Program-made: the position numbers and the translations under genes
The notes under the pieces: generated by a model
Seen by the model: the letters and a program-made list of their open reading frames with translations, nothing else
What the model was told of the DNA's origin: nothing
The model's database searches: none
In this document: in pieces, positions 1 through 23,182 of the stretch
Layout: every line of letters begins with the position of its first letter
Numbering within the stretch: position 1 is the stretch's first letter
DNA from: Xylographa opegraphella
Taxonomy: Eukaryota
Direction of reading: 5' to 3'
Length of the DNA: 26,172 nucleotides
Assembly: GCA_022813865.1 (NCBI GenBank)
Contig: JALDZX010000002.1
Location: 744,001-770,172, forward strand

Positions 1-1051
1 GTGGCTCCAGGTGTCCGCGTGTCAGGAGAGGATATCATCATTGGAAAAACCGCTCCCATTGCGCCAGACGCCGAAGAAATGGGACAGCGGACGAAGCTGC
101 ACATCAAACGGGATGCCTCGACCCCGTTAAGATCAACTGAAAGCGGAATCGTCGACAAAGTCCTACTGACCACCAACTCCGAGGGGCTGCGATTCGTCAA
201 AGTCCGTATGCGCACCACCAAAATCCCTCAGATTGGGGACAAGTTTGCCTCGCGTCATGGACAGAAAGGTACTATCGGCATTACATACCGCCAGGAGGAC
301 ATGCCTTTTAGTGCGGAAGGTATCGTTCCCGACCTTATCATCAACCCACACGCCATTCCTTCGCGCATGACGATTGCGCATTTGATTGAATGTCAGCTCA
401 GCAAAGTTTCGTCGCTTCGGGGGTTCGAGGGCGACGCAACCCCGTTCACGGAGGTCACTGTGGACTCGGTCTCCAGACTTCTCCGCGAACATGGCTACCA
501 CTCTCGGGGGTTCGAAGTCATGTACAACGGGCACACCGGACGTAAGCTAGTAGCGCAGGTCTTCCTAGGACCTACATATTATCAGCGTCTACGGCACATG
601 GTGGACGACAAAATACACGCTCGCGCTAGAGGTCCTGTGCAGATACTAACACGGCAACCGGTGGAGGGGCGAGCACGAGATGGTGGTCTACGATTCGGAG
701 AGATGGAGCGTGACTGCATGATCTCCCACGGTGCAAGCGCTTTCTTGAAGGAGAGACTGTTCGAGGTGTCGGACGCTTTCAGGGTGCACATCTGCGATAT
801 CTGCGGGCTGATGACCCCAGTGGCGTAAGTTCACCTCGCATGCCCCCCCCACCCCAACGGTCGATCTTGGGATGCTGATTGGTCACAGGAACCTCAAGAA
901 GGCCTCGTTCGAATGCCGGCCGTGCAAGAACAAAACCAAGATCTCGCAAGTGCACATCCCGTACGCGGCCAAGCTGCTCTTCCAGGAGCTGGCGTCCATG
1001 AACATCGCTGCCAGGATGTACACGAAGCGATCGGGCATCACGGTCCGATAG
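1..1051 (+). CDS. RPB2: RNA polymerase II second-largest subunit, 3' part (5'-truncated by window). Exons <1..824 and 889..1051
   Basis: Hallmark motifs [50 protein letters not shown] and Zn-binding CDIC...CRPC. Intron 825..888 has a GTAAGT donor, GCTGAT branch and CAG acceptor. Splicing restores [53 protein letters not shown], with TAG at 1049-1051. Confidence 0.98.
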
Positions 1052-7295: not shown

Positions 7296-8501
7296 TCACT
7301 TCTTTTCCGCCTTGTCCTTTGCCTTCTTGGCCAAGTCCTCCGCTTGCTTCACCCGCTTCTGCACCACGGCCGTGATATCGTCGTACGTGGCCTTGACCAG
7401 ATCCTCGGCTTCCTTGCCGTGCTTCTCACCGATCTCTTGGAGCTGAGACAGCTTCGGCATTATCTTGTCGGCGCCCGGAATCATCTTGAAATACTGGTCG
7501 AGACCACCGCCCATCGACCCGGCCTGCGATTTCGCCTTGTCAGTGGCAGATTTGATGTACTGCTCGATGGAGTCTGTGTTGCCAGATTGGGCGGCGTCCT
7601 TAACCTTCTCCAATAGCTCGGTGAAGTTGCCCTGCTTGAGGGCGTCGGCATTCTTCTCGACGAGCTCTTTGAGCTTGGGGGATTTGTCCAGGTAGGGCTG
7701 AGCTTGCTCCATGCCTTTTTTCCACGCTTCGTCGCCCATCTTCTTCACCATCTCCATCTTCTCTTGCACGACCGAGCGGATCTTGTTCGCGGTGTCCATG
7801 CTCACGCCGCCCTTGATGATGTCCTGGATCTGGTCCCACGTCTGGTCCACCTGCTTCTTGGCCTCGGGACCATACTTGTCTCCCATCTCCTTGAGCTGGT
7901 CTAGGTTTCCCCCAACCTTGGCCTTGAGATCCGGGTGGTTGTTCAAGATGTCCTGGGCGGCATCGCCCGCCAACTCACCGATCTGCTTCAACCGCTTCTG
8001 TATGATTTCCCACACCTGGGTTGCAGTCTCAATGCTCATTCCCTTGTCCTTGGTGACATCCTTAATCTCGCCGTACGTTTCCCTGACGATGTCGTCCACC
8101 TTCCCGCCGTGTTTGGCGCGCACGGCATCCAGGTCATTGAAGGCCGTGTTGACGTAGCCGCTGGCACCTGGGATGAAGGCCGCATAGGTCGTCGCAGTCG
8201 ATCGCAACCACTTCAAAGCTTCGTTAGGCTCGGGCGCAGCTTTCGCGAGCCGGTCTTGAGCTTGCTCGAAGTAGGCTTTCGTCTGGTGAGCTGTGTTGAC
8301 GAGTGTTTTCGCCCCTGAGAAGTAGTAGTATGTGTAGCCGCCCGCGAAGGCAATTCCACCCCCGACCAGGCCACCGATGATGGCTTGCGAGTAATTGGGG
8401 CTGGCTTCTTGCCCGGCTGTTGCATACCGGCGAGTGGCGCGAGCTACGGGGAAGTTGCGGAGCTGGCGCACGGAGCGGAATGCTGCTCTGGAAGCCGACA
8501 T
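7296..8501 (-). CDS. Conserved fungal apolipoprotein/apolipophorin-like all-helical protein with predicted mitochondrial presequence and one TM segment, 401 aa, single exon
   Basis: Arg/Ala/Ser-rich, acid-free N-terminus ending RRYAT. Hydrophobic Gly-rich segment IIGGLVGGGIAFAGGYTYYYF. Long amphipathic K/E/D/Q/A helices. Strong GC3 codon bias. Confidence 0.85.
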   Translation of the reverse strand: MSASRAAFRSVRQLRNFPVARATRRYATAGQEASPNYSQAIIGGLVGGGIAFAGGYTYYYFSGAKTLVNTAHQTKAYFEQAQDRLAKAAPEPNEALKWLRSTATTYAAFIPGASGYVNTAFNDLDAVRAKHGGKVDDIVRETYGEIKDVTKDKGMSIETATQVWEIIQKRLKQIGELAGDAAQDILNNHPDLKAKVGGNLDQLKEMGDKYGPEAKKQVDQTWDQIQDIIKGGVSMDTANKIRSVVQEKMEMVKKMGDEAWKKGMEQAQPYLDKSPKLKELVEKNADALKQGNFTELLEKVKDAAQSGNTDSIEQYIKSATDKAKSQAGSMGGGLDQYFKMIPGADKIMPKLSQLQEIGEKHGKEAEDLVKATYDDITAVVQKRVKQAEDLAKKAKDKAEKK

Positions 8502-9773
8502 GACGATGAGGAGGAGATGGCAGCAGCGTCAATTGAAACGCGAGAGTTGCGTGAAATGTTCTGGCGGTTTGTAGGTTGGGAGGTGACAGGTCAATAATGT
8601 GTAGACGAGCTTTTCTCCCACCATGGTTGCCATGCGGGAAAAGTGACGATGCTGGGACACGCCCGCCCGCAACGGGGAACGCGGCGGCGATGACGATGCA
8701 CGGCCGCTGAGCTAAGCCCGGCTGGTGGAACGAAGTTCCGTCTTGAGCTAAGGTACGGAGGACCTTGTCTTGATTCTTCTCATCTTGTTCGGGACAGCTC
8801 CAACGCTGCCAGCTTCCTTCATTTCCACACTCGGCTTACTCATGTATCTGTACCGACCGAGAGCCCCCTCTTGTATTTGACTGCTGCGGATAGACTACTT
8901 GCACAGCCTATAGGACAACCTGAAAGCTCGAAGAAGCGTTGCGATGCGTCTCTTATCTACGTTGAACAATACATCAGACCCGGGTGCTCATTTTGTTATT
9001 TCCAACTCGTTTTCTCAAGCTGAATCGAGAGTCCTTCTTGATACCGTCGTTACTTTACTGCCAGTGAAGGATATACACCACCTAGGTTTCGATATATATG
9101 CTCCTCATGACCTTCCAAGCCCGGTGCGCTGGACTATCGTTTCCGCGTCCATTGCCTGTTTGGGATTGCGGAGGCGCTATGATACGTCGTTTCTGGCTAA
9201 TTTTTCGTGACAAGGCGACTGCTACAGTCTATCCCTTTGCTGTCCGTTGACCTAAGTGTGCCATGGCAGAGGTACTGACTGTTATCGATTATGCTTTCGT
9301 ATCTCCTGGTGTCTAAAGAATAGACTTGGATGAACCAGACGGATATACGGCGGTTACTTCTCATCATCCTTATTAACTTTGCTTGCACCTGAGGACTCTC
9401 TGAAGTCTATAGTTTATGAGTAGTCTAGTAAGTGATATTGAGTAGGCGCCGAGTTAAGAAGCACCAGAGGTGTATTATTACTTTCACCAATCTCCAGTAG
9501 CTGTAAATGTGCATACCAAATACTTTAAAAATTCCATGCGTAAGGTACCTACACTTCAACTCTTTAGGCAGTTTTCTAAGCTCTGGCTACGATGCAGAGT
9601 CGTGGCGGCGACCCGTGACAGCGTGAGAACCAAACACTAGCGTGTCCCAATCGGGGAGGCTTCAAGAACCGCTATGTCAACAAAGACTCGACAGACATCC
9701 GCAAGAAGAGGAGTGCTTTCCTTCAGTTCCAACACTGACGCCTTCCACTTTTTGTAGGAGCGCGTTGCGCAAA

Positions 9774-12766
9774 ATGGCTTCCTTAGAAGTCATTTTCTTG
9801 TCGTCCTCACCCTCGCGCTCCTTAATCACAACGACACCACCTCGGGATTTCGATCATTTTCTAATGTCATCTTCGCCTAGCTTCCCATCTCCTTCACGAA
9901 TACTTCTCAATTCGCGCAGACCGAGCCTCCAAAGTGGAAGTGGGGCGAACGCGATCCCAACGGGTATTACAACAGGCTTCACACGAGCGTCTTGCTTGCT
10001 TGATCCAGATACTATACTCGATACTACTGCCATACCATTCCGTACAGGAGCTCAATTGGGCCAATCAAAACCGTTGCGAAGTCTAAGCCCACATGCAAGT
10101 GAAAGCACTGTTGCAGAAGCCATTCATGCTGTCGTCCCACCTGTCAAGAAACCGAGAGCTCGAAAGAAATCTAAAGATGCTCATGAGGAGGGTAAAATAA
10201 CGGCTACCGAGGAAAATCATGTAGCAAATGGAGCCAAGAACCCAGCGAAGACACCCCGGGTACGGAAGAGCAAAGATGTGGGTGGAAATAAGGATGATAC
10301 GGTTCGAGGAGATCCGGCGCCTAAGAAACCCCGAATCCGAAAGAGCAAGGATGGCGTTACTATTACAGCACTTACAACCGATGCTGTCTCGACCAAGAAG
10401 CCGCGAGCAAGGAAAAGCAAGGATGGTAGCACAGAAGTTGTTGCAGTCCCAGGAGATTTACCAGTGAAGAAGTCCCGGGTAAGAAAGAGCAAGGACGAGG
10501 GCCAAACAACAATCGTGAAAACAAGGATTGTGAAGCCATCGGCTGCTCAAGGGATTGAGGATGGGGTAAAGAGTAACATGACTGGGGCGCAGAAAGAGCT
10601 ATCGGCTTTGACGGAATCTATCTCAACGGAGACTTCGAATCCCATCATTATCTCGAACGAGCCGCTTGGCCTCGATGTATATATGCCAAGGAAGAGGGAC
10701 TGGACACCCCTCAGAGATGATGAGGGCTTGAACGCAGGCAAAATGGCTGAATCAGACAATGTTTTGCCGCAAAATACTGGAAATACTCCCAGTAACATTC
10801 CGGAAGCCTACATCTTTGCAACGCTTCATGGTGATTTTAGCTATGTTCAGCCCGATAGTCTTGGCTCTGCCACTGATGCACAACGGATGGTCACTGGAGA
10901 GGCATTTACCAAGAGACAAAAACTAGAGGTATACAGCGGTTGTATTCTACATGTATTCATGTGCTGACGCTCAAATAGCTTGTTGATATACCAGGTGGTC
11001 CACCAATAATCGTAAGACCCCAAAAGGGCAGTAAAGTCCCCAAGAGGAAACCGCAGACTATAACTGCAAAAGCAACGGAAGATTTTAGACCATTAGAACC
11101 TACTGCAACTTGCTCTCCAATCCTTCAATATCTAGCTCAGTCGTCACCAGAATTCAGTATCGGCGTGCCAGTCGCGGCGAATCAGAGCGACGATATGGCT
11201 AAAAAGCGAGCACACAAGGTACCAGTGAGACTGAAGAAGTTGAAAGGCGTAGAGATCAGGGCCAAAAAGTCTGATCCTGTCCTTTTGAGCCCTGAAGAAG
11301 CCATGCAAGCAACTAGAAATCAGGACTTCCTTTTCGGGACATCTAGTCAACTTATGCGCGAGGACTCTCCTACATTCGTTCGGGAGCTGCAAGCCGCTAT
11401 TGTGGCATCTGAGTCATTCGAGAACATAATTGATTCTAACGAAGAAACCCCAAAGCCAAGATTGTCCGCATCGAGTGTGTCAGAATTAACCGCTTCAAGA
11501 AAGTTATGGTCAGAAGCCGCTCGTGATTCTCGAGGAGAATTGCTTGATGTGGAAATGATAGATCTGGCCAATACACCCAGCGCACAACAGCCGTTGAAGA
11601 ATATTATTAACACAAAATCGTCCCGGACGGAGAATCGGGAATTACCGCCACCAGTAGGCGATGGAACTTGGAAATCGATCAACGACTTTGCGACCCCTGT
11701 GACGATTCAGACGGAAACTTCTCAAGAGGTCGTCAAGATAACGGGAAATAACGTCCATGACATCGTGAAATCGATACCACGCTGTATTGCTGAGGCAGCT
11801 TTACGGCCTCGTCCAAAGAGCCGGTCTCCCGTCAAGAAATCCAAGTTATCGACCACGTCGAACGAGCCTACTAGCGAGATGCCTCGCTTTCAAGCCTATA
11901 CAAACAATGAACTCAAGAATGCGGTATCTAGCCACGGTTTCAAAGCAATAAAGAGCAGGGGTGCTATGATTGTCCTGCTGGAAAGATGCTGGGAAGGCAA
12001 AAACAGACTTGCTCTCCAGTCCTTGACCCCGAATGCAAATTTACCAAACTTAGCTCCTGTTATTGATACAGTGGTTGCAGATAAATCCAATAAGAAACCT
12101 ATCGCGAAGCGGAAAGGGCGACGCTCAAAGTTCGATGGTGTTCCCACAGTGGAAGAAGTCCTGGCACAAACTAGGGTCGAACCCAGCGTTTCTCCTGCAA
12201 AGCCTCGAGGTAGGCCACGGAAGAATGCGACGCTTCCCGCGGCAAAACAAAACGTCACTGTGGGAGTGGACAACCCAGGGACCGAGCCATTACCAAAACC
12301 AACGACGCCCACGAAAGCAAAGCAAAAAACCAAGAAGCGGCCCAAAGACGACATCGAAGACCCAAACCCTCCACCCACTCCCTCGCCACCCCGCCGCCGC
12401 ACGCCGCTCTCTCCGCCTCAAGCACTCCCTCTCACCAACACCGTTCTCGCAACACCTAAGAAAGCACCAGCGAGCACAACTTTCTCCTCCCAGACTCATC
12501 CCGACCTCTTCGCCAAGATCACCGAGGCCGTGACCACCTTCCCACCCACCCACGACCCCAAGAATCTGACCTGGTACGAAAAGATCCTGCTGTACGACCC
12601 GATCGTGCTCGAGGACCTGGCCACGTGGCTGAATATCGAGGGGTTGGGCAGAGTGGGGGTCGATGAGGAGGTGCATCCCACTGCCGTGAGGGCGTGGTGC
12701 GATGAGAAGAGCGTTTGTTGCTTGTGGAGGCAGAGTGTGAGGGGGGGGTCGAGGAAACGGTACTAG
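9774..12766 (+). CDS. SLX4: Structure-specific endonuclease subunit SLX4, about 980 aa. Exons 9774..10928 and 10979..12766
   Basis: C-terminal Slx4 domain TWYEKILLYDPIVLEDLATWLN..GLGRVG...VRAWCDEKSVCCLWR. SAP-like segment MPRFQAYTNNELKNAVSSHGFKAIKSRGAMIVLLERCWE. Motifs LLSPEEA...QDFLFGTSSQL and KRKPQTITAKAT. Intron 10929..10978 (GTATAC...GCTGAC...TAG) joins the two ORFs in frame. Start taken at AAA ATG 9774. Confidence 0.93.
10146..10496 (+). repeat. Intragenic coding repeat in SLX4: five copies of the K(K/T)(P/S)RxRKSKD motif (first copy has one extra K)
   Basis: KSKD cores at 10167, 10266, 10341, 10413 and 10485 (spacing 99, 75, 72, 72 nt), with a DNA-level AAGAGCAAGGAT-like core. Confidence 0.85.
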
Positions 12767-15585: not shown

Positions 15586-17640
15586 CTAAAGTGCGGCATC
15601 CTGGTTCTGAAGTACATATTCTATCGAGATGGCATCTTCGTGCCTACGGAAAATCAGTGAGTTCCCTTCGACAACCACCTCTTCGCCTTCTCTCATCCTA
15701 TCTATGTCCACAATCAATGGTAGCGGATCATCCTTTTGTTCATCCAATGGTAGAAGCTTGATGCCAATGCTGTAGCGCAACTTCGAGGTCTCAGGGCTGG
15801 CTGAGCTCAGAAGAAGGTTAATGTTGGAAGTTCCAGCATAGAAACTAGGCCCCAATGGAGATAATGTCGTATTCACTGGGTCGCCGCGTCGAAGTTCAGT
15901 AAAGTTTCGGTGATCATTGCTCCTGTTGCGATGGTGCGGTGCACTGAGCGACTTGCTGCTTGACGCTGGCGGCGTCATGTTGCACGAGGTCCGAGAATCA
16001 GTTGCAGGGGCTATAATTTTGACAGAATGTTGGTTTTGTGATGAGCTTGCTGTCCTTTTCGAGGAACTTATGGAGTTTTTATCTGCATTCTTCGATGGCA
16101 ATGTAATGTCTTCCTGTTTCGAGTGATTTTCAGCTGCGTTAGGCAACAACTCTCTTTCACTCATGTCACGGTCCCTTCTCTTCGACAACCTGCTTATGAT
16201 AGACCAGACAACGGATTCAAGGACGATGCTTTCGTTTGGATATTGATACAGTCTCGTTCTACCCGATTGAAGAGCTACGTCTGCTATTCTCGTCACTTCT
16301 GTCTCAAACTTGCATACGACGGATATAATGTGATACGCTTGAGCTGTATCGAGTTCATGAAAGACCTGGGGGAGTGCCCATTTTTCATATGCTCGTCCAT
16401 GCGAGTTTGCAATGAAGAATTTGCCGTGATATCCGAAGAAGAGGTTGCAAAGAAAGCATGCTTTCTTGCTAGATAAGATCACTCTTGGTGGCAATTTGCT
16501 GCGATGAAGTTCGTAATAAGCTAGAAGCTGTATTTCCGCATGAACGGGGTACTTCGAGCAATCCAAGCACCGTAATTGAGACTGCAAGGTCCTGTACTGT
16601 TTTATTTGGGCAAGAAGTTCCCGTGTTCCCGGGGCTCCATTGTTGAGTAGAGCTGTCTTATTATCAACCACTCTTTGGATTCTTGCCACCACACCATTAC
16701 TTTGAGAATCCTCGGTGGTCTTTATCGTTTTTGTGTCCGCCGCGTACTTGGTAACCTCCACTGTGATGGCTTTGAAGATGGTATACTTACGCGTTGCTTG
16801 AAGGAGCTCTTGAGGAATGGTATAGTAATAGCCTAGCTTAGAAATAGTTTTCAATATTACCGAAACGGTATCAGGGCCGATACCTGGGAGGCTGCTCAGG
16901 GCTTCGGCAAAGGGGAAATCCGCGGCAATGTGATGGGCAAATTCTGTTATCATCAGCAACGTATCGCTACCTTCTTGGGCCTCGGCTTGTGTCTGGGACA
17001 TGATTTCCAATTCCAGATTAACCCTAAGCTTTGATCCGAGTGTACAGATCTTGTCGTGTATTTAGTATGGTAGGCGAAGGTGTAAGCATCATCTGCTCGG
17101 CCAGCTTCATCATCCATGGTGCTAGTTTCCGTTTAGCTTCTTTCTTCTTCTTGATTCTGGCATGCCTCGATCTCAGCCGAGCAAGTATGCGGTTCTGGTT
17201 GAGGGCCACAATCTGTCTGCGTAGGGTTTTCAAATGTTGAGCCAGATGTACGTTGTCTGGCAATCTTCAGTCCCCATACCTCGTACTGATGAGTACTCAC
17301 TTAAAGCGACCGCATTTTCTAGGGTGGCTTTCATGACATTGAAGCCTGCTTGGACCTGATCGAGGTTACCGTGGTTAACTGCCAACCTGATGACCATGAC
17401 CTGCCCGTTCTTCTTTTCTTCTACGCAAAGTGCAATCACTTTACGGGGATCATCAGAAGAGGCAGCCCAGAAAGTCAAAATCTCAACAAGCCGCCTCTCG
17501 TGCACCAAAGATAATACTCTATTAGGACTGCAAGCATGACAAGCGGCATAGCGATCGATCGAGTTTTCTAAAGGTGGCACTGGCGTTTCATTGAGCGCTT
17601 GCAAGATAAAAATATTCTGTGCCAGGCGAAGCTGTTCCAT
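15586..17640 (-). CDS. OTT_1508-like nucleic-acid/nucleotide deaminase, about 670 aa, interrupted by one frameshift near 17024-17032 (possible pseudogene). Exons 17640..17301 and 17256..15586
   Basis: Catalytic VHAEIQLL (HAE 16542-16534) and SSKKACFLC (Cys 16458 and 16449), followed by SHGRAYEKWALP. Typical fungal N-terminal segments LSLVHERRLVEILTFWAASSDDPRKVIALCVEE...IRLAVN and RILARLRS. Intron 17300..17257 (GTGAGT...CAG). Exon 2 hits TAG at 17026-17024 and the protein continues in the +1 frame. Confidence 0.78.
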
Positions 17641-19030
17641 ATCTTACAAGGATCCGTGACGCCCAACGCACGAAGGTTCTTCGTAATGCTCTATGAACTA
17701 GACAGCATAGGCCACGTCGAGCTTGTACATGTCCGCGACGATCACGTAGAAAGTGAGATTGAAAGAAGCATAGCACACCGTTACCGAGGAGAGAAAATGT
17801 AGCGCCTCTTCGTGGGACTGTCTATCGAGAGTCTGTCTGTGAATGGAATGCACGCTAAAGGCAACTGCTGATGAAGAGACAGATACCTGGTTAGAACATG
17901 CTCGAACAAATCAACTGTGAACAGTCGTGATTAGACCATAGTTTCCTCCACTCCGTGGTTATGGCATTGCGGGACTAGCAACTGCTCAATGTGTAACATT
18001 GAGCTCTAGCCGAGTTGGGGCTCGGCATCATGATATGACAGCAACGAAATTCTAGTATCAAGCATCGAAAGCCTACCTTCGGATTTTGACCGCTGTGACT
18101 TAATGCCGGATTGGAATTTGTGGGATCCGTCAAAAGGGTACTCCTGCAATGATGCCAATATTTGCCACATCAAGCCCGCGAAATTCAGAACTGAGGAAAT
18201 CGAAGTGAAGCTGACGCAACCCCATTCGAGGTTCGCTCCTGCAGTTAATGTATACCGGCGGGCGTCTTCACGCAGTATCGGTACCTGCTTGAATCTGGCC
18301 TACTGAGATATACTGCTGATGTAGAACTTGAGTGGGAGTTTTAGGAGGGAAAGTCTCGTAAGCAAGTCACAACTTGATGAAGTCGCTCATACCTCCCCTT
18401 CTTGAAGCTGTGGCCCATAATATACGGGTGGCCATTGACCGCAAGGGGGAGATTGACTACGCAGCCGCGCCAGCGGACTTTGATCCTTGGACTTAGATCC
18501 TTGGACAGTTCCTCGATTCATCCAGTTGCTCCAAGTCACAATAATGACGTCTGTACCTTTGTCTTGTAAGTGTGAGGCCGGTCTTGTCCCAGTGTTGTGA
18601 ACATTCGCTCACTTTACATAGACGGATGATAGCTGGTCAGATTCCTACTATCCGTAAAGTGCTCATCTCCGTCCTTGGTGACGACAATGTGCGTGACATT
18701 CGAATGGACCGTACAGAGCTAGCTCCTAGCACTTACAGCGGTGTTTGCAGTGTTTGCATCGAGGTGGCTGAGAGCTAGGACTTAGGTCCTACTAGTGCCG
18801 AAGCGATACCCTCAGGTACCCAAAGCTGCAGCTGGATCGATAAGCCTGGTGTATTGTTACTCTTCAGATTTTGCACATACAGTACATATTATTCGATTTT
18901 GCTACATATCTTAGGCGCCGTTATGATATCGTTAGAGACAGTCGTATTGGTGGCATTTGGCGTCGCTCCATAGTACTTCAGGTTCAACAACTCCTTAGCC
19001 TGCAACGGTCGTTATTCATCCACCATAATC

Positions 19031-20554
19031 ATGGATGGTAAGCCACATGCTACGGTGGCGGCGCGCAATTGAGAGTATCTTGTGCTCAGAAGCTGAAAGA
19101 CTAATTTGGTTATTGGTGGCGTAGAAGAAACTCCTGCTCTGGTCATCGACAATGGGTAAGCTCGTCTTCCACTTGCATGAATGGAGGCAGGAATGTGAAG
19201 TAATTGGCTTGTCCAGCAATGCTACAGCAAGAAGTAAGCGAAGCTGACGTTTTGAAAGCTCCGGCATGTGTAAGGCTGGATTTGCTGGCGACGAAGCTCC
19301 AAAAGCTGTTTTCCGTATGTTCCCAATTTATACACCACCATCTAATGTTCTAAGAACGGCGCAGCTTCAATTGTTGGTCGGCCTCGCCATCATGGGTAGA
19401 TTTGCACAACTCCAGCTCAGACTGATGGCAACGCTAATCATGAGGTTAGTATTATGATCGGAATGGGCCAAAAGGATTCCTATGTCGGCGATGAAGCACA
19501 GATGAAACGCGGAATCTTGACCCTTAGGCATCCCATCGAGCATGGCATCGTAGTGAACTGGGACGACATGGAAAAGCTATGGCACCATACCTTCACCTAC
19601 GAGTTGCGTGTCAATCCGGAAGACCATTCTGTGCTGCTCAGCGAGTGTCCACTCAATCCGCGTGCCGACCGAGAAAAAATGACGCAAATCGTCTTCGAAT
19701 CGTTCAACGCGCCTGCATTTTATGTTGCGGTTCAAGCTGTGTTATCTCTTTATGCCTCAGGCCGGAGCACGGGCGTCGTGATCGATTCAGGGGACGGCGT
19801 CACGCATGTCGTTCCCGTGTATGAAGGCAATCCTGTATCCGAGGGGATCACTCGGATCAACATGGCCGGCCGAAATCTGACAGACTATCTCATGAAGATA
19901 TTAGCGGAACGTGGGTATCCCTTCTCGAACACAGCAGACTGGGAGATCGTGCGAGATATTAAAGAACGGCTGTGCTACGTGGCCCTCGATTATGAACAAG
20001 AGGTACAGACTGCGAACCAGAGCTCGTTGTTAGAGAAGTCGTACGAGTTACCTGATGGTCAAGTCATTACGATTGGGGCCGAGCGCTTTCGAGCACCAGA
20101 GGCTCTGTTTCAGCCGCACATGTTGGACGTCAAGAGCGATGGTGTGCATCTTTCCCTCTTCAATTCGATTCAGAAGTGTAAGCCCGCCATATGGAGAGAT
20201 GTGAGTAGATACTTGTTTATGAAGAATAGAACTCGCTAATGAATCAGATGTACAGTAATATTATCATGGTAAGCATATACACTGCATAGTAAAGACCAAT
20301 ACCGAACGCTTACACTGAAACAGTCGGGAGGCTCAACGATGTTTCAAAGCATCGAAACTAGGATGCAGAAGGAACTCATCGTCCTTGCGCCTTCATCCAT
20401 GAGGATCAAAGTCTTTGCTCCGCCAGAGCGGAAATACTCCGTCTGGATTGGAGGTTCGATTCTCGCTTCGCTCTCCACTTTCCAACAAATGTGGATAAGC
20501 AAGCAAGAGTACGATGAGGGAGGGCCCCAGGTCGTCCAGCGGAAGTGTGTTTGA
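19031..20554 (+). CDS. Divergent actin paralog, 375 aa. Exons 19031..19037, 19125..19155, 19259..19314, 19365..19395, 19450..20200, 20248..20268, 20324..20554
   Basis: Six GT-AG introns give 1128 nt, i.e. 375 aa plus stop, the exact actin length: [59 protein letters not shown]...[20 protein letters not shown]. About 86 substitutions versus canonical Pezizomycotina actin (hand count against a remembered sequence), so probably not the housekeeping act1. Confidence 0.93.
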
Positions 20555-21280: not shown

Positions 21281-22795
21281 TTAGAACTTCCGTTTCTTTT
21301 TCGCCGGTACTTTGTTCTTCTCCTCAAGCTCTCGCTTAATCCTGGCTCTATTCCGATCCGCTCTTTCCATCGAAGTCTCCCTAGCAGGCGGTGGCGATGC
21401 AGATGTCTTCAAAGACTGGCGGCGACTGCGTCCATTATCCACGACTGAAGACGGGCCGTCACCTTTTATGTTGGCGGAAGAAAGCGGTCTCTGAGCGCCT
21501 GGTTCGGTTTCCGGCAGTTTTCCTTTTTTTTGTAGGCCTCCAATCATACCCAGCTTTGGGCGTGCTTTGTCTGCCGTAGCAAGTGGCGACATATTGTCCT
21601 CAAGCTGTCCTGCAATTCGCTTGGGGAACTCGCCTTCGCCTGCAATACTTGGGCTACGCGCAGTCTGTGGAGGTATTTGTGATGCTTGCTGTCTTTTCCC
21701 GCCAAGTATACCGAGTTTTTTCGGGGTGTTGGGCATCAAAACTGGCTTGGACTCGGTATCTTTATGTTCTTGGGTTACTGGCCCCTCCAAATCATCATCT
21801 GAGGTTTCGGAGCCCGAGACTGTTGAATCAGATACCGCACGCTGCCCGTGCTGCCTTGTAGATTCAGCGGCATTGCTTTCTCGAGTTTGACTGGTCTGTC
21901 TCTTCGTCTGGTCAACAATCGTTTCTTTCGCTCTCCGCGGACTACCAGCTTGGAATCCTTCTACGTCGTTTGTGAAGCCTCTCAAGGACAAGGACTCAAC
22001 TATATCCTTTTGGGGTTTTGTAGATGATTCAGTTTCCAGCTCATCTGATCTGACATTATCATGGGGTCTATTTGGCAAATCATGAACGGTCGATGATCCT
22101 GTCTCGAAGAGTTGACTACAAATACTCTCTATATCTGTATTTCCAGTAGCAATCTTGACTCCATTTCGCCAATTCTGGATGTTGAATTCGTTAAGACCTC
22201 GCACTGAGGCCATAACCAACTCACGTGCATTGGTCTTTGACCTCCTCGGGGGCGCTGCGCTTGGAAACACTACAGTCAATTCGATACCGGCAGATTCTAG
22301 CTTCTCGGTGAGTCTGTTGATGACATGATCTTTCTCTTTGAGGTGAGCAAGCAGGGAATCGACTTCGGATTTTGCGGACAATAGTTCATAAATGCAAGGC
22401 AGGAGAAAAGTTGAAGTCAGTATTTCTTGAGACGCACATGATAAGTGAAAGCACCATACCAAAAGTGGCAAGGGGCTGGGAAGTACGACAGTGGCCTCTA
22501 ATGTGATGCTTGTATGCGCAGCTATGGATTGAAGCTTCAAGCTGGTCTTAGGTTGGCCCTTCAAAGCTTTCTCGATCTCTTGCAGTAGTTTCATCAACTG
22601 GCCTGGACCTTCGCTAGGATCAATGCTGACGTTTTCATCGAAAGCTCTCCTGATTATTTGCCGTCGATCAAGCGACTCAATCCACAGATGTGTAAGGTCG
22701 GTGACCTGTATAGTATAGGCAGAAGTGGATATGTCACGCTTGACAAGAAGCGGCAAAGCGTGACTGACTGGCAGACGATTCCATTCGGAAGACAT
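21281..22795 (-). CDS. XLF/Cernunnos (Nej1-like) NHEJ factor, about 504 aa (possible in-frame 48-nt intron 21949..21902)
   Basis: N-terminal XLF head domain W..LPV...LPLLVK....AYTIQVTDLTHLWIESLDRRQIIRRA.....SIDPSE...QL..LL, coiled coil LLAHLKEKDHVINRLTEKLESAGIEL, and fungal C-terminal ...RELEEK..PAKKKRKF (Ku-binding/NLS-like). ATG at 22795; the ORF-track start at 22861 is a non-ATG codon. Confidence 0.88.
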   Translation of the reverse strand: MSSEWNRLPVSHALPLLVKRDISTSAYTIQVTDLTHLWIESLDRRQIIRRAFDENVSIDPSEGPGQLMKLLQEIEKALKGQPKTSLKLQSIAAHTSITLEATVVLPSPLPLLVWCFHLSCASQEILTSTFLLPCIYELLSAKSEVDSLLAHLKEKDHVINRLTEKLESAGIELTVVFPSAAPPRRSKTNARELVMASVRGLNEFNIQNWRNGVKIATGNTDIESICSQLFETGSSTVHDLPNRPHDNVRSDELETESSTKPQKDIVESLSLRGFTNDVEGFQAGSPRRAKETIVDQTKRQTSQTRESNAAESTRQHGQRAVSDSTVSGSETSDDDLEGPVTQEHKDTESKPVLMPNTPKKLGILGGKRQQASQIPPQTARSPSIAGEGEFPKRIAGQLEDNMSPLATADKARPKLGMIGGLQKKGKLPETEPGAQRPLSSANIKGDGPSSVVDNGRSRRQSLKTSASPPPARETSMERADRNRARIKRELEEKNKVPAKKKRKF

Positions 22796-23182
22796 TGTAA
22801 CATGTCTAATCACGAGAGCGATAAGCAACGCGAAATGCTGATGCAAAGGCACAGCGTGCAAAAGCCGACAATGTTTGTCACAAGCTTAAAGGAGGTAACA
22901 GTTTCGTTAATGAACCAGCAAAGCACAATAGCAACATTTGTGCAGCAAGACTTGCAAGAATTCCACAACAGTCTCCAGCCTATATGTGCATGGACTTCCT
23001 AGACAGATAGGAGGTGATAAGTATTCCCACGGTCGAGTTTGAGGACTAGATTAGTCTAGCGTACTTTTCAGCGCAAACAACCTAAATTTCTAGCCTCTTT
23101 TGCCCACCTCACTTAGTGCCAAAATTTTCATGTTTACTCCGGCCGCCTTTACCATCTAACACTCCTCGTAGCCAGACTGGGC

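What the first reader, a model, noticed from the sequence alone, without database searches (positions are those of the whole stretch)
19817..20200. Asymmetric remodelling of the actin paralog: natural DVD-to-KPA change suggests a non-polymerising, barbed-end-capping actin
Seen: the pointed-end face is conserved (D-loop 38-52 identical, R62, E241-L-P243-D-G245). The barbed-end and lateral faces are rewritten: W-loop FALPHA 169-174 to NPVSEG (19829-19846), hydrophobic plug SVLGLESG 265-272 to HMLDVKSD, D286-V287-D288-V-R290 to K-P-A-I-W (20180-20194), and terminal F375V. Known: D286/V287/D288 form the longitudinal filament contact, and the D286A/V287A/D288A triple mutant is used as a barbed-end-blocked, non-polymerisable actin. 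Inference: the protein could dock on a filament barbed end via its intact D-loop and then stop elongation. Alternatively it acts as an obligate monomer (cofactor, decoy or nuclear actin) or forms a different polymer.
Basis: partly seen in the sequence, partly recalled or inferred. Interest (0 to 1): 0.8.

Follow-up and report, generated by a model that had tools for sequence, protein, structure and literature searches.

The report
Fast-evolving actin paralog of lichen fungi
A lichen fungus carries an extra, fast-evolving actin gene whose filament-growing face has been rewritten while the opposite face is kept, so it probably ends or avoids filaments rather than building them.

Summary
Window 19031-20554 (+) is an intact 7-exon, 375-residue actin gene. 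It matches the NCBI protein "actin [Xylographa opegraphella]" at 100% and is about 77% identical to canonical fungal actin.

The changes are not random. Two runs of 6 consecutive substitutions give permutation P=0.00055. Residues that receive the next filament subunit are changed in 15 of 23 cases, against 67 of 330 elsewhere (p=1e-5). Residues the protein would offer to an existing barbed end are changed in only 3 of 22.

The gene belongs to a monophyletic paralog clade (100/100 support) found in 8 Xylographa species, Lambiella and Trapelia. The same asymmetry appears in every member scored. ATP-site residues are kept and codon bias is nil.

The natural K-P-A at 286-288 parallels the engineered DVD-to-AAA actin, which adds to barbed ends and blocks growth.

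The capping idea is therefore plausible but unproven. T202N, E205D and R206W show the pointed face is not untouched, and W290 is specific to this species. Expression, polymerisation and a canonical actin in the same genome could not be tested.

The parts
19031..20554 (+). Whole divergent actin gene: 7 exons, 6 GT-AG introns, 375 codons plus stop
   Evidence: Exon 5 product is 100% identical to P0001, 'actin [Xylographa opegraphella]'. Pfam PF00022 scores 252.9 bits on exon 5.
19031..19037 (+). Exon 1 (Met-Asp plus the first base of codon 3)
   Evidence: The start 'MD' agrees with the annotated relatives P0131, P0122 and P0002.
19125..19155 (+). Exon 2
19259..19314 (+). Exon 3
19365..19395 (+). 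Exon 4. It holds P38, R39 and the start of the D-loop, identical to canonical actin.
19450..20200 (+). Exon 5 (residues 43-292 in frame from 19451). It holds almost all of the remodelled patches.
19450..19480 (+). Rest of the D-loop region (to S52), identical to canonical fungal actin
   Evidence: Unchanged in 20 of the 22 paralog sequences in hand; P0016 and its near-duplicate P0130 are altered here.
19817..19846 (+). W-loop and following residues 165-174: I165V, then FALPHA changed to NPVSEG
   Evidence: W-loop role. P172, H173 and A174 are changed in every family member.
19928..19942 (+). Subdomain-4 patch 202-206: T202N, E205D, R206W. This is a change on the pointed-end side.
   Evidence: T202, E205 and D286 are named as the polymerisation-cation site. 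R206 is F or W in all family members.
20117..20140 (+). Hydrophobic plug 265-272: SVLGLESG changed to HMLDVKSD (includes G268D and E270K)
   Evidence: E270-R39/T203 and G268-H173 lateral contacts.
20180..20197 (+). Subdomain-3 loop 286-291: DVDVRK changed to KPAIWR
   Evidence: R39-D286, R62-D288 and D244-R290 contacts. DVD mutant data.
20201..20247 (+). Intron 5 (47 nt). It is seen only in Xylographa-type genes.
   Evidence: Read-through tails in P0124, P0127 and P0129 start here, whereas Lambiella and the Trapelia-type read on through 293-299.
20248..20268 (+). Exon 6, a 21-nt micro-exon (residues 293-299)
   Evidence: The spliced sequence agrees with annotated P0001.
20324..20554 (+). Exon 7 with stop. 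The C-terminal residues S365G, S368Q, I369V, H371Q and F375V (codon 375 at 20549-20551) are changed.

Best explanation
Shown. This is a functional, lineage-restricted paralog of conventional actin. It arose by one DNA-level duplication before the Xylographa/Lambiella and Trapelia-type lineages split. Since then it has evolved roughly 40 times faster than canonical actin.

Shown. It keeps the ATP-binding and catalytic residues. It also keeps the residues that an incoming subunit offers to a filament's barbed end: the D-loop, P38, R39, K61, R62, I64, E195 and D244.

Shown. It has lost, and keeps changing, the polar residues by which a filament subunit receives the next one. These are D286, D288, R290, the W-loop tip 169-172, H173, E270 and F375.

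Inferred. The protein cannot propagate a canonical filament from its own barbed face. It therefore most likely acts at low abundance on canonical actin. It would add to a barbed end through its intact pointed face and then slow or stop further elongation, as a natural analogue of the engineered DVD(286-288)AAA actin. If docking is too weak, it would persist as a non-elongating monomer with reduced profilin binding.
For: - Intact 7-exon gene with canonical splice sites.
- Relatives with open frames in 10 named species and further unnamed assemblies, falling in 8 clusters.
- Paralogs are monophyletic with 100/100 support. The stem is 0.14 and the root-to-tip distance about 0.36, against 0-0.008 for canonical-type terminal branches.
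- All 22 nucleotide-site residues checked are kept, apart from conservative T303S, Y306F and V159I.
- Receiving face 15/23 changed against 67/330 in the rest (p=1e-5). Incoming face 3/22 (p=0.00066 against the receiving face).
- The same pattern holds in all 11 paralogs scored: receiving 10-15 of 22-23, incoming 2-3 of 13-22.
- The receiving face is also the most variable part within the family: 2.73 against 1.62 states per site, p=3e-5. Its partner residues do not change, so there is no compensation.
- Non-conservative changes are enriched there: 8/23 against 29/330, p=0.001.
- Contact pairs are taken from passages of bioRxiv 10.1101/309534.
- DVD-to-AAA actin is non-polymerisable in fly and yeast actin. 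It is incorporated at barbed ends and then blocks addition. Yeast D286A,D288A is lethal and partially dominant; R290A,K291A,E292A is lethal.
- No codon bias (ENC 59.5, against 43.6 for a biased neighbour). This fits low abundance, though the inference is weak.
Against: - There is no experimental or expression evidence of any kind.
- The incoming face is not more conserved than the protein average (p=0.59). T202N, E205D, R206W and G268D lie on it or next to it.
- The M44 pocket (L142, Y143, T148S, I165V) and E167 on the barbed face are kept or conservatively changed. A D-loop could therefore still bind there.
- In Trapelia-type members D286 is kept and E270 becomes D, so the block is less drastic in half of the family.
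- Plasmodium actin 1 also has K270 and divergent subdomain-3 residues, yet forms short filaments.
- The contact sets were compiled by me from one preprint after I had seen the substitutions, so the test was not blind.
- A canonical actin in the same genome was not demonstrated.
Confidence: 0.4

Rival explanations
1. A polymerisation-competent divergent isoform. It would form its own short or dynamic filaments, or co-polymerise and alter filament dynamics. The subdomain-3 and plug changes would set compatibility and stability rather than block growth, as in Plasmodium actin 1.
For: - The hydrophobic residues of the plug (M266, L267, V269) and of the M44 pocket are kept.
- Surfaces used only in filaments, such as the acidic N-terminus, are largely kept.
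- Plasmodium actin 1 carries K270 and divergent subdomain-3 residues. Subdomain 3 decides incorporation into foreign filaments (passages of PMC6055528).
- From recall, most known actins at about 77% identity polymerise.
Against: - R39, R62 and D244 stay canonical while their partners 286, 288 and 290 vary (D/E/K/Q; A/H/I/N/S/Y; R/Q/W). There is no compensating change.
- In Xylographa both acidic partners of R39 (D286 and E270) are lysines, which predicts repulsion in a homopolymer.
- The DVD triple mutant alone abolishes polymerisation of yeast actin.
Confidence: 0.25
2. An obligate monomer with a role outside filaments. It could be a subunit or cofactor of a complex, for example a nuclear remodeller, or a G-actin pool that escapes profilin and formin. 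The barbed-face rim would then drift simply because it is unused.
For: - D286 and D288 are profilin ion-pair partners and are lost. K113 is changed. E167, E361, E364 and R372 are kept (PMC3464195 Table 2).
- The receiving face is hypervariable, as expected for an unused surface.
- The ATP site and the hydrophobic target-binding cleft are kept.
- The closest solved chain is a fungal actin (8a5d_V). From recall it comes from a chromatin-remodeller module, which shows that monomeric roles exist.
Against: - The D-loop is unchanged in 20 of the 22 paralog sequences in hand; P0016 and its near-duplicate P0130 are the exceptions. P38, R39, K61, R62 and D244 are also unchanged in the sequences that cover them. 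From recall, these are disordered or unused in free G-actin.
- No partner was identified.
- The neighbouring genes give no hint.
Confidence: 0.2
3. A toxin-insensitive back-up actin. Its drug-binding pockets would be altered so that the fungus tolerates an actin-targeting metabolite, its own or a competitor's. These pockets are the latrunculin-type site at the cleft mouth and the cytochalasin-type site at the barbed cleft. The analogue is Chlamydomonas NAP1.
For: - Y69 and D184 are changed in every family member and R206 is F or W in all.
- Y69 is a latrunculin contact. R183A/D184A gives resistance in yeast and HeLa cells (passages of bioRxiv 10.1101/2025.01.24.634782).
- W-loop and F375 changes border the barbed cleft; cytochalasin binding there is recalled, not checked.
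- A conventional plus a divergent actin coexist in Chlamydomonas (PMC6789165, search listing only). NAP1's drug insensitivity is recalled.
Against: - Only 2 of 7 latrunculin-site residues differ in the window protein. D157, R183, T186, E207 and R210 are kept. By my hand binomial this is no more than chance (about 0.09 for the family-wide set).
- There is no biosynthetic cluster in the 26 kb. The neighbours are RPB2, Slx4, a deaminase-domain gene and XLF.
- A back-up actin must polymerise, which the 286-290 changes argue against.
Confidence: 0.08
4. A decaying duplicate with no function, whose pattern reflects neutral drift.
For: - Fast evolution.
- No codon bias.
- No RNA data were available.
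Against: - Open frames and splice sites are kept across two subclades that are only about 78% identical to each other.
- All nucleotide-site residues are kept.
- About 77-80% identity to canonical actin is retained everywhere, with changes concentrated on one face.
Confidence: 0.03

Closest known systems
Engineered DVD actin (D286A/V287A/D288A) of Drosophila 5C, beta-actin and yeast Act1
   Same: All three residues 286-288 are replaced (K-P-A here) while the D-loop is intact. The mutant is non-polymerisable, adds to barbed ends and then blocks further addition (passages of PMC9010300, PMC11130202 and PMC11643313).
   Different: This one is natural and conserved in a clade. It carries 82 further substitutions, including the W-loop, the plug, F375 and 202-206. 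D286K reverses the charge rather than neutralising it. Its behaviour is untested.
Yeast alanine-scan alleles act1-107 (D286A,D288A) and act1-106 (R290A,K291A,E292A)
   Same: The same residues are altered. The alleles are lethal, and act1-107 is partially dominant, which fits interference with wild-type filaments (Table 1 passage of PMC4132179).
   Different: Those are laboratory alleles of the only actin gene. Here the changes sit in an extra copy that selection has kept.
Plasmodium actin 1 (divergent, short dynamic filaments)
   Same: It has K270 in the plug and divergent residues at 308 and 315 of subdomain 3. Subdomain 3 decides whether it incorporates into canonical filaments (passages of PMC6055528).
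   Different: Plasmodium actin 1 is the main actin of its organism and does polymerise. Whether it keeps D286 and D288 was not checked here.
Actin-related proteins with one filament face conserved (the Arp2/3 paradigm)
   Same: The logic is the same: one face is kept to bind actin and the other has diverged, so the protein sits at a filament end (abstract of PMC2199984).
   Different: The polarity is opposite, with the pointed face kept here. From recall, Arps are ancient families below about 50% identity with insertions. This protein is 77% identical to actin, has no indel and branches inside the fungal actins.
Chlamydomonas NAP1, a divergent second actin beside a conventional one
   Same: It is a divergent actin paralog coexisting with a conventional actin (PMC6789165, search listing only).
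   Different: From recall, NAP1 polymerises and substitutes for the conventional actin under latrunculin. No such evidence exists here.

Membership tests
Conventional actin (Pfam PF00022, actin proper rather than Arp) | Significant match to the actin profile | tested here: met
   PF00022 scores 252.9 bits against a cut-off of 27 for the exon-5 product alone.
Conventional actin (Pfam PF00022, actin proper rather than Arp) | 375 residues without insertions, high identity to actins, and branching within the actins of its phylum | tested here: met
   375 aa, no indel, 77.3% identity to the fungal consensus. The clade nests among canonical Pezizomycotina-type actins when rooted with protist actins.
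Conventional actin (Pfam PF00022, actin proper rather than Arp) | Nucleotide-binding and catalytic residues (list recalled: D11, S14-M16, K18, Q137, D154, G156-V159, H161, G182, R210, K213, E214, G301-T303, M305, Y306, K336) | tested here: met
   All are kept across the family except the conservative T303S, Y306F and V159I.
Conventional actin (Pfam PF00022, actin proper rather than Arp) | Conserved longitudinal and lateral filament contacts on the barbed/receiving side (D286, D288, R290, W-loop, H173, E270, F375) | tested here: not met
   15 of 23 listed residues are changed, including D286K, D288A, R290W, F169N, H173E, E270K and F375V.
Conventional actin (Pfam PF00022, actin proper rather than Arp) | Polymerises into F-actin | not testable with these tools
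   This needs biochemistry.
Barbed-end-blocking (DVD-type) actin, asked as 'does it work like one' | Residues 286-288 no longer D-V-D | tested here: met
   K-P-A at 20180-20188. D288 is replaced in all family members. D286 and V287 are replaced in some only.
Barbed-end-blocking (DVD-type) actin, asked as 'does it work like one' | Pointed-end docking residues intact | tested here: inconclusive
   19 of 22 are intact, including the D-loop, R39, K61, R62 and D244. T202N, E205D and G268D are changed, and R206W lies next to them.
Barbed-end-blocking (DVD-type) actin, asked as 'does it work like one' | Adds to barbed ends and stops elongation | not testable with these tools
   No assay was possible.
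Self-resistance copy of a drug target inside a biosynthetic gene cluster | Location in or beside a biosynthetic cluster | tested here: not met
   No PKS, NRPS or terpene-type ORF was seen among the window's large ORFs. The neighbours are RPB2, Slx4, an OTT_1508-like deaminase and XLF.
Actin-related proteins (Arp1-Arp11) | Ancient orthologous families with low identity to actin and family-specific insertions (recalled) | tested here: not met
   77% identity, no insertion, and a young clade inside the fungal actins.

The most novel reading that the evidence does not exclude
A natural chain-terminating actin. It would be a conventional-actin duplicate kept for a long time in one lineage of lichen-forming fungi. 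Its pointed face would still dock on canonical barbed ends while its rewritten barbed face refuses the next subunit. Actin itself would then have been recruited as a barbed-end capper, the mirror image of the Arp logic, with the blocked face free to drift.
Probability: 0.3. Interest if true: 0.85.

Novelty: new variant of a known kind. Interest (0 to 1): 0.55.

Why it matters
Conventional actin is among the most conserved eukaryotic proteins. From recall, filamentous ascomycetes are generally treated as having a single actin gene.

This clade shows what happens when a duplicate escapes that constraint. One filament face decays and keeps changing, while the ATP site and the opposite face stay fixed. 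It is a natural counterpart of the DVD mutant that laboratories engineer to obtain non-polymerising or end-blocking actin.

If the protein caps or poisons barbed ends, it would be a new kind of filament-end regulator derived from actin itself. If it is monomeric, it would be a naturally non-polymerising actin useful for structural work.

Either way it gives a direct, testable case for how actin-actin and actin-profilin interfaces evolve. I found no paper on it in three full-text searches. The proteins are deposited only as automatically named "actin", and the copy from this genome is truncated to 332 residues.

Tried and rejected
- Whole genome: none is held for this window. A canonical actin in the same genome could not be searched for.
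- Sequencing runs: no RNA holder is listed.
- Read laying at 80% likeness: run X1 gave only the source contig across the gene. X2 and X3 gave only short pieces below 90% likeness. Nothing could be learned about a second actin gene, splicing or expression.
- Metagenome scan with a degenerate motif pattern: it returned 32 loci. All are other eukaryotic actins or Arps, 42-62% identical to the paralog. None is a family member, so no orthologue DNA was obtained. dN/dS and synteny were not computed.
- Cluster look-ups for named canonical actins of these lichens: none of the 16 canonical-type clusters looked up carried an organism name.
- First tree: the outgroup rows were one residue out of register. 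It was discarded and redone with alignment.
- Self-resistance in a gene cluster: rejected for this locus.
- Latrunculin-site reading: overlap of 2 of 7 residues, not beyond chance by hand calculation.
- Earlier findings of the scan: nothing for this genome, and only unrelated Asgard, viral or protist actins by sequence.
- Kelleher et al. 1995 (PMC2199984): only the abstract is held, so its contact lists were not available.
- Structure and complex prediction were not run. The full-length protein exists only as a spliced product, which these tools do not accept. Every canonical-type actin fetched was truncated or carried intron read-through.
- The third protein search, the representative search and the atlas were left unused because they would not separate the rival explanations.
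Full report
WHAT IS THERE

The finding lies in exon 5 of an intact actin gene on the + strand, at 19031-20554. I located seven exons joined by six GT...AG introns of 47-103 nt. They give a 375-codon frame with no indel against fungal actin, so standard actin numbering applies directly.

The exon-5 product (window 19451-20200, residues 43-292) is 100% identical to the NCBI protein named "actin [Xylographa opegraphella]" (P0001). That record is annotated as a truncated 332-residue protein starting at M44. Pfam gives PF00022 at 252.9 bits. No other actin-like frame is in the window.

CHECK OF THE OBSERVATION

It differs at 85 of 375 positions, which is 77.3% identity.
- FALPHA to NPVSEG (169-174, 19829-19846).
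- SVLGLESG to HMLDVKSD (265-272, 20117-20140).
- DVDVR to KPAIW (286-290, 20180-20194; the run continues to K291R).
- F375V (20549-20551, in exon 7, outside the stated range).
- Residues 38-52, R62 and E241-G245 are unchanged.

The clustering is beyond chance. Two runs of at least six consecutive substitutions occurred in 0.055% of 20,000 permutations.

Two corrections are needed. First, the pointed-end side also carries T202N, E205D and R206W (19928-19942). Second, W290 and V375 are states of this species alone; the other ten Xylographa-type sequences have R290 and L375.

IS THE REMODELLING ASYMMETRIC?

I took the inter-subunit contacts named in passages of Chou and Pollard (bioRxiv 10.1101/309534) and split them into two sets.

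The "incoming" set holds residues that a subunit offers to the filament end it lands on:
- P38, R39 and the D-loop 40-50.
- K61, R62 and I64.
- E195, T202, T203, E205 and D244.
- G268.

This set has 22 residues.

The "receiving" set holds residues that meet the next subunit:
- The F375 pocket: P109, 110, I136, V139 and I175.
- K113.
- The M44 pocket: L142, Y143 and T148.
- The W-loop 165-172 and H173.
- E270, D286, D288, R290 and F375.

This set has 23 residues.

In the window protein 3 of 22 incoming residues are changed and 15 of 23 receiving residues are changed. Elsewhere 67 of 330 are changed. Fisher tests give p=1e-5 for receiving against the rest and p=0.00066 for incoming against receiving. 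Incoming against the rest gives p=0.59. Non-conservative changes follow the same pattern: 8/23 against 29/330, p=0.001.

The asymmetry is therefore real. It comes from accelerated change of the receiving face, not from special conservation of the pointed face.

One caveat applies. I compiled the sets from one preprint after I had seen the substitutions.

THE GENE IS ONE OF A FAMILY

Close relatives occur in seven further Xylographa species (bjoerkii, vitiligo, soralifera, parallela, trunciseda, pallens and carneopallida). They also occur in Lambiella insularis (88% identity over exon 5) and Trapelia coarctata (P0131, full length, about 78%). Several unnamed ENA, JGI and Logan assemblies hold relatives too. 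Together these form eight 90%-identity clusters.

I built a maximum-likelihood tree of 37 rows over 250 columns. It held 18 paralogs, 14 canonical-type actins and 5 protist actins as outgroup. Four near-duplicate paralog rows (P0127, P0128, P0130, P0134) were left out. The tree puts all paralogs on one side of a branch with 100/100 support. They split into a Xylographa+Lambiella subclade and a Trapelia-type subclade, nested among canonical-type fungal actins. An earlier tree was out of register and is discarded.

The paralog stem is 0.14 and the path to the window sequence is about 0.36 changes per site. Canonical-type terminal branches are 0-0.008.

Canonical-type introns after F31, G42 and M299 are visible as read-through in fetched proteins, and the paralog shares them. 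The duplication was therefore at the DNA level. Intron 5 is present only in Xylographa-type genes and creates a 21-nt micro-exon.

WHAT THE FAMILY PATTERN SAYS

The receiving-against-incoming asymmetry is seen in all 11 paralogs scored. The receiving set has 10-15 of 22-23 residues changed and the incoming set 2-3 of 13-22.

Within positions 43-299, nineteen sites differ from canonical in every member:
- Same new residue in all: I85L, N115D, A174G, F223Y, V266M, V276L.
- Different new residues: S60, Y69, I110, P172, H173, V178, D184, R206 (F or W), E270, G272, T278, D288, K291.

The receiving face is also the most variable part within the family, at 2.73 against 1.62 states per site (p=3e-5). 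Examples are 286 D/E/K/Q, 288 A/H/I/N/S/Y and 173 D/E/K/Q. Meanwhile the partner residues R39, K61, R62, D244 and M44 do not change. That is the signature of a face released from its canonical contacts, not of a co-evolving self-interface.

All nucleotide-site residues I checked (a recalled list of 22) are kept, apart from conservative T303S, Y306F and V159I. The open frames persist across subclades that are only about 78% identical to each other. The protein is therefore under purifying selection as an ATP-binding actin fold.

Its codon usage is unbiased: ENC 59.5, like Slx4 at 60.7 and XLF at 57.0 and unlike a neighbour at 43.6. This weakly suggests low abundance.

LINK TO KNOWN BIOCHEMISTRY

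According to the passages read, the contacts are as follows:
- R39 pairs with D286, R62 with D288 and D244 with R290.
- T202, E205 and D286 form the polymerisation-cation site.
- Y169 (F169 in yeast) contacts P38 and I64.
- F375 packs against A170, P172 and the neighbour's V43.
- E270 of the plug meets R39 and T203.
- G268 meets H173.

In the window protein the receiving partners are K286, A288, W290, N169, P170, S172, V375, K270 and E173.

The engineered D286A/V287A/D288A actin is non-polymerisable in Drosophila 5C and in yeast Act1 (passages of PMC9010300 and PMC11130202). It is stated to be incorporated at barbed ends and then to block further addition (PMC11643313).

Yeast act1-107 (D286A,D288A) is lethal and partially dominant. 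Yeast act1-106 (R290A,K291A,E292A) is lethal (PMC4132179 Table 1).

WHAT TEMPERS THE CAPPING IDEA

- All three cation-site residues are changed, and two of them lie on the docking side.
- G268D is in the protein's own plug.
- The M44 pocket and E167 are kept or conservatively changed.
- Trapelia-type members keep D286 and an acidic residue at 270.
- Plasmodium actin 1 has K270 and divergent subdomain-3 residues and still makes short filaments. There, subdomain 3 decides compatibility with foreign filaments (PMC6055528).
- D286 and D288 are also profilin ion-pair partners (PMC3464195 Table 2). Loss of profilin binding in a monomeric pool explains the same residues.
- A toxin-escape reading has only weak support. 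Y69 and D184 are changed family-wide and are relevant to latrunculin. However, only 2 of 7 site residues differ and no biosynthetic cluster lies nearby.

VERDICT

This is a new, lineage-restricted variant of conventional actin. It is conserved, fast-evolving and selectively remodelled on the face that receives the next filament subunit.

I rate [quoted passage not shown] at 0.4. The rival explanations rate as follows: own or altered polymer 0.25, monomeric role 0.2, toxin-insensitive back-up 0.08, decay 0.03.

Several things were not shown here: expression (no RNA holder listed), any biochemical property, dN/dS (no orthologue DNA), and a canonical actin in the same genome.

Three literature searches found no paper on this paralog. 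No supplementary files were consulted.

Noticed in passing
window 15586-17061 (-) and probably 17230-17643 (-): The gene transcribed divergently from the actin paralog, about 1.4 kb upstream, carries an OTT_1508-like deaminase domain (PF14441, 71.7 bits). Whether the two genes share regulation is unknown.
   Followed up: no
window 20201-20268: A 47-nt intron specific to Xylographa-type genes splits off a 21-nt micro-exon (residues 293-299). Lambiella and Trapelia-type relatives read straight through this point.
   Followed up: partly
P0131 (Trapelia coarctata) and P0212 (unnamed): Trapelia-type paralogs run on for 10-16 residues past position 375 (L375 followed by an extension). Xylographa-type genes stop right after residue 375. 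The actin C-terminus lies in the barbed-face groove, so an extension there could matter. An unrecognised intron was not excluded.
   Followed up: no
P0001 against window 19031-19449: The public annotation of this gene is N-terminally truncated: 332 aa starting at M44, with exons 1-4 missing. Several orthologue models contain intron read-through.
   Followed up: partly
P0016 and P0130 (unnamed JGI): One divergent family member has a three-residue insertion and loses M47 within the D-loop. It is the only member in which the D-loop itself is altered.
   Followed up: no
P0019, P0020, P0041, P0214 (unnamed canonical-type actins): Some canonical-type actins share P199 and N231 with the paralogs. They may be the canonical actins of related lichen fungi and mark the lineage in which the duplication happened.
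   Followed up: no
window 7296-8528 (-): A 410-residue lysine- and alanine-rich ORF has strong codon bias (ENC 43.6, GC3 0.77). Its only Pfam match is a sub-threshold apolipoprotein-like hit. It is probably a highly expressed helical-repeat protein.
   Followed up: no
window 1-828, 10979-12766, 21281-22885: Housekeeping neighbours: the RPB2 C-terminus, an Slx4-domain gene and an XLF-domain gene on the - strand. The paralog sits in ordinary chromosomal context.
   Followed up: partly
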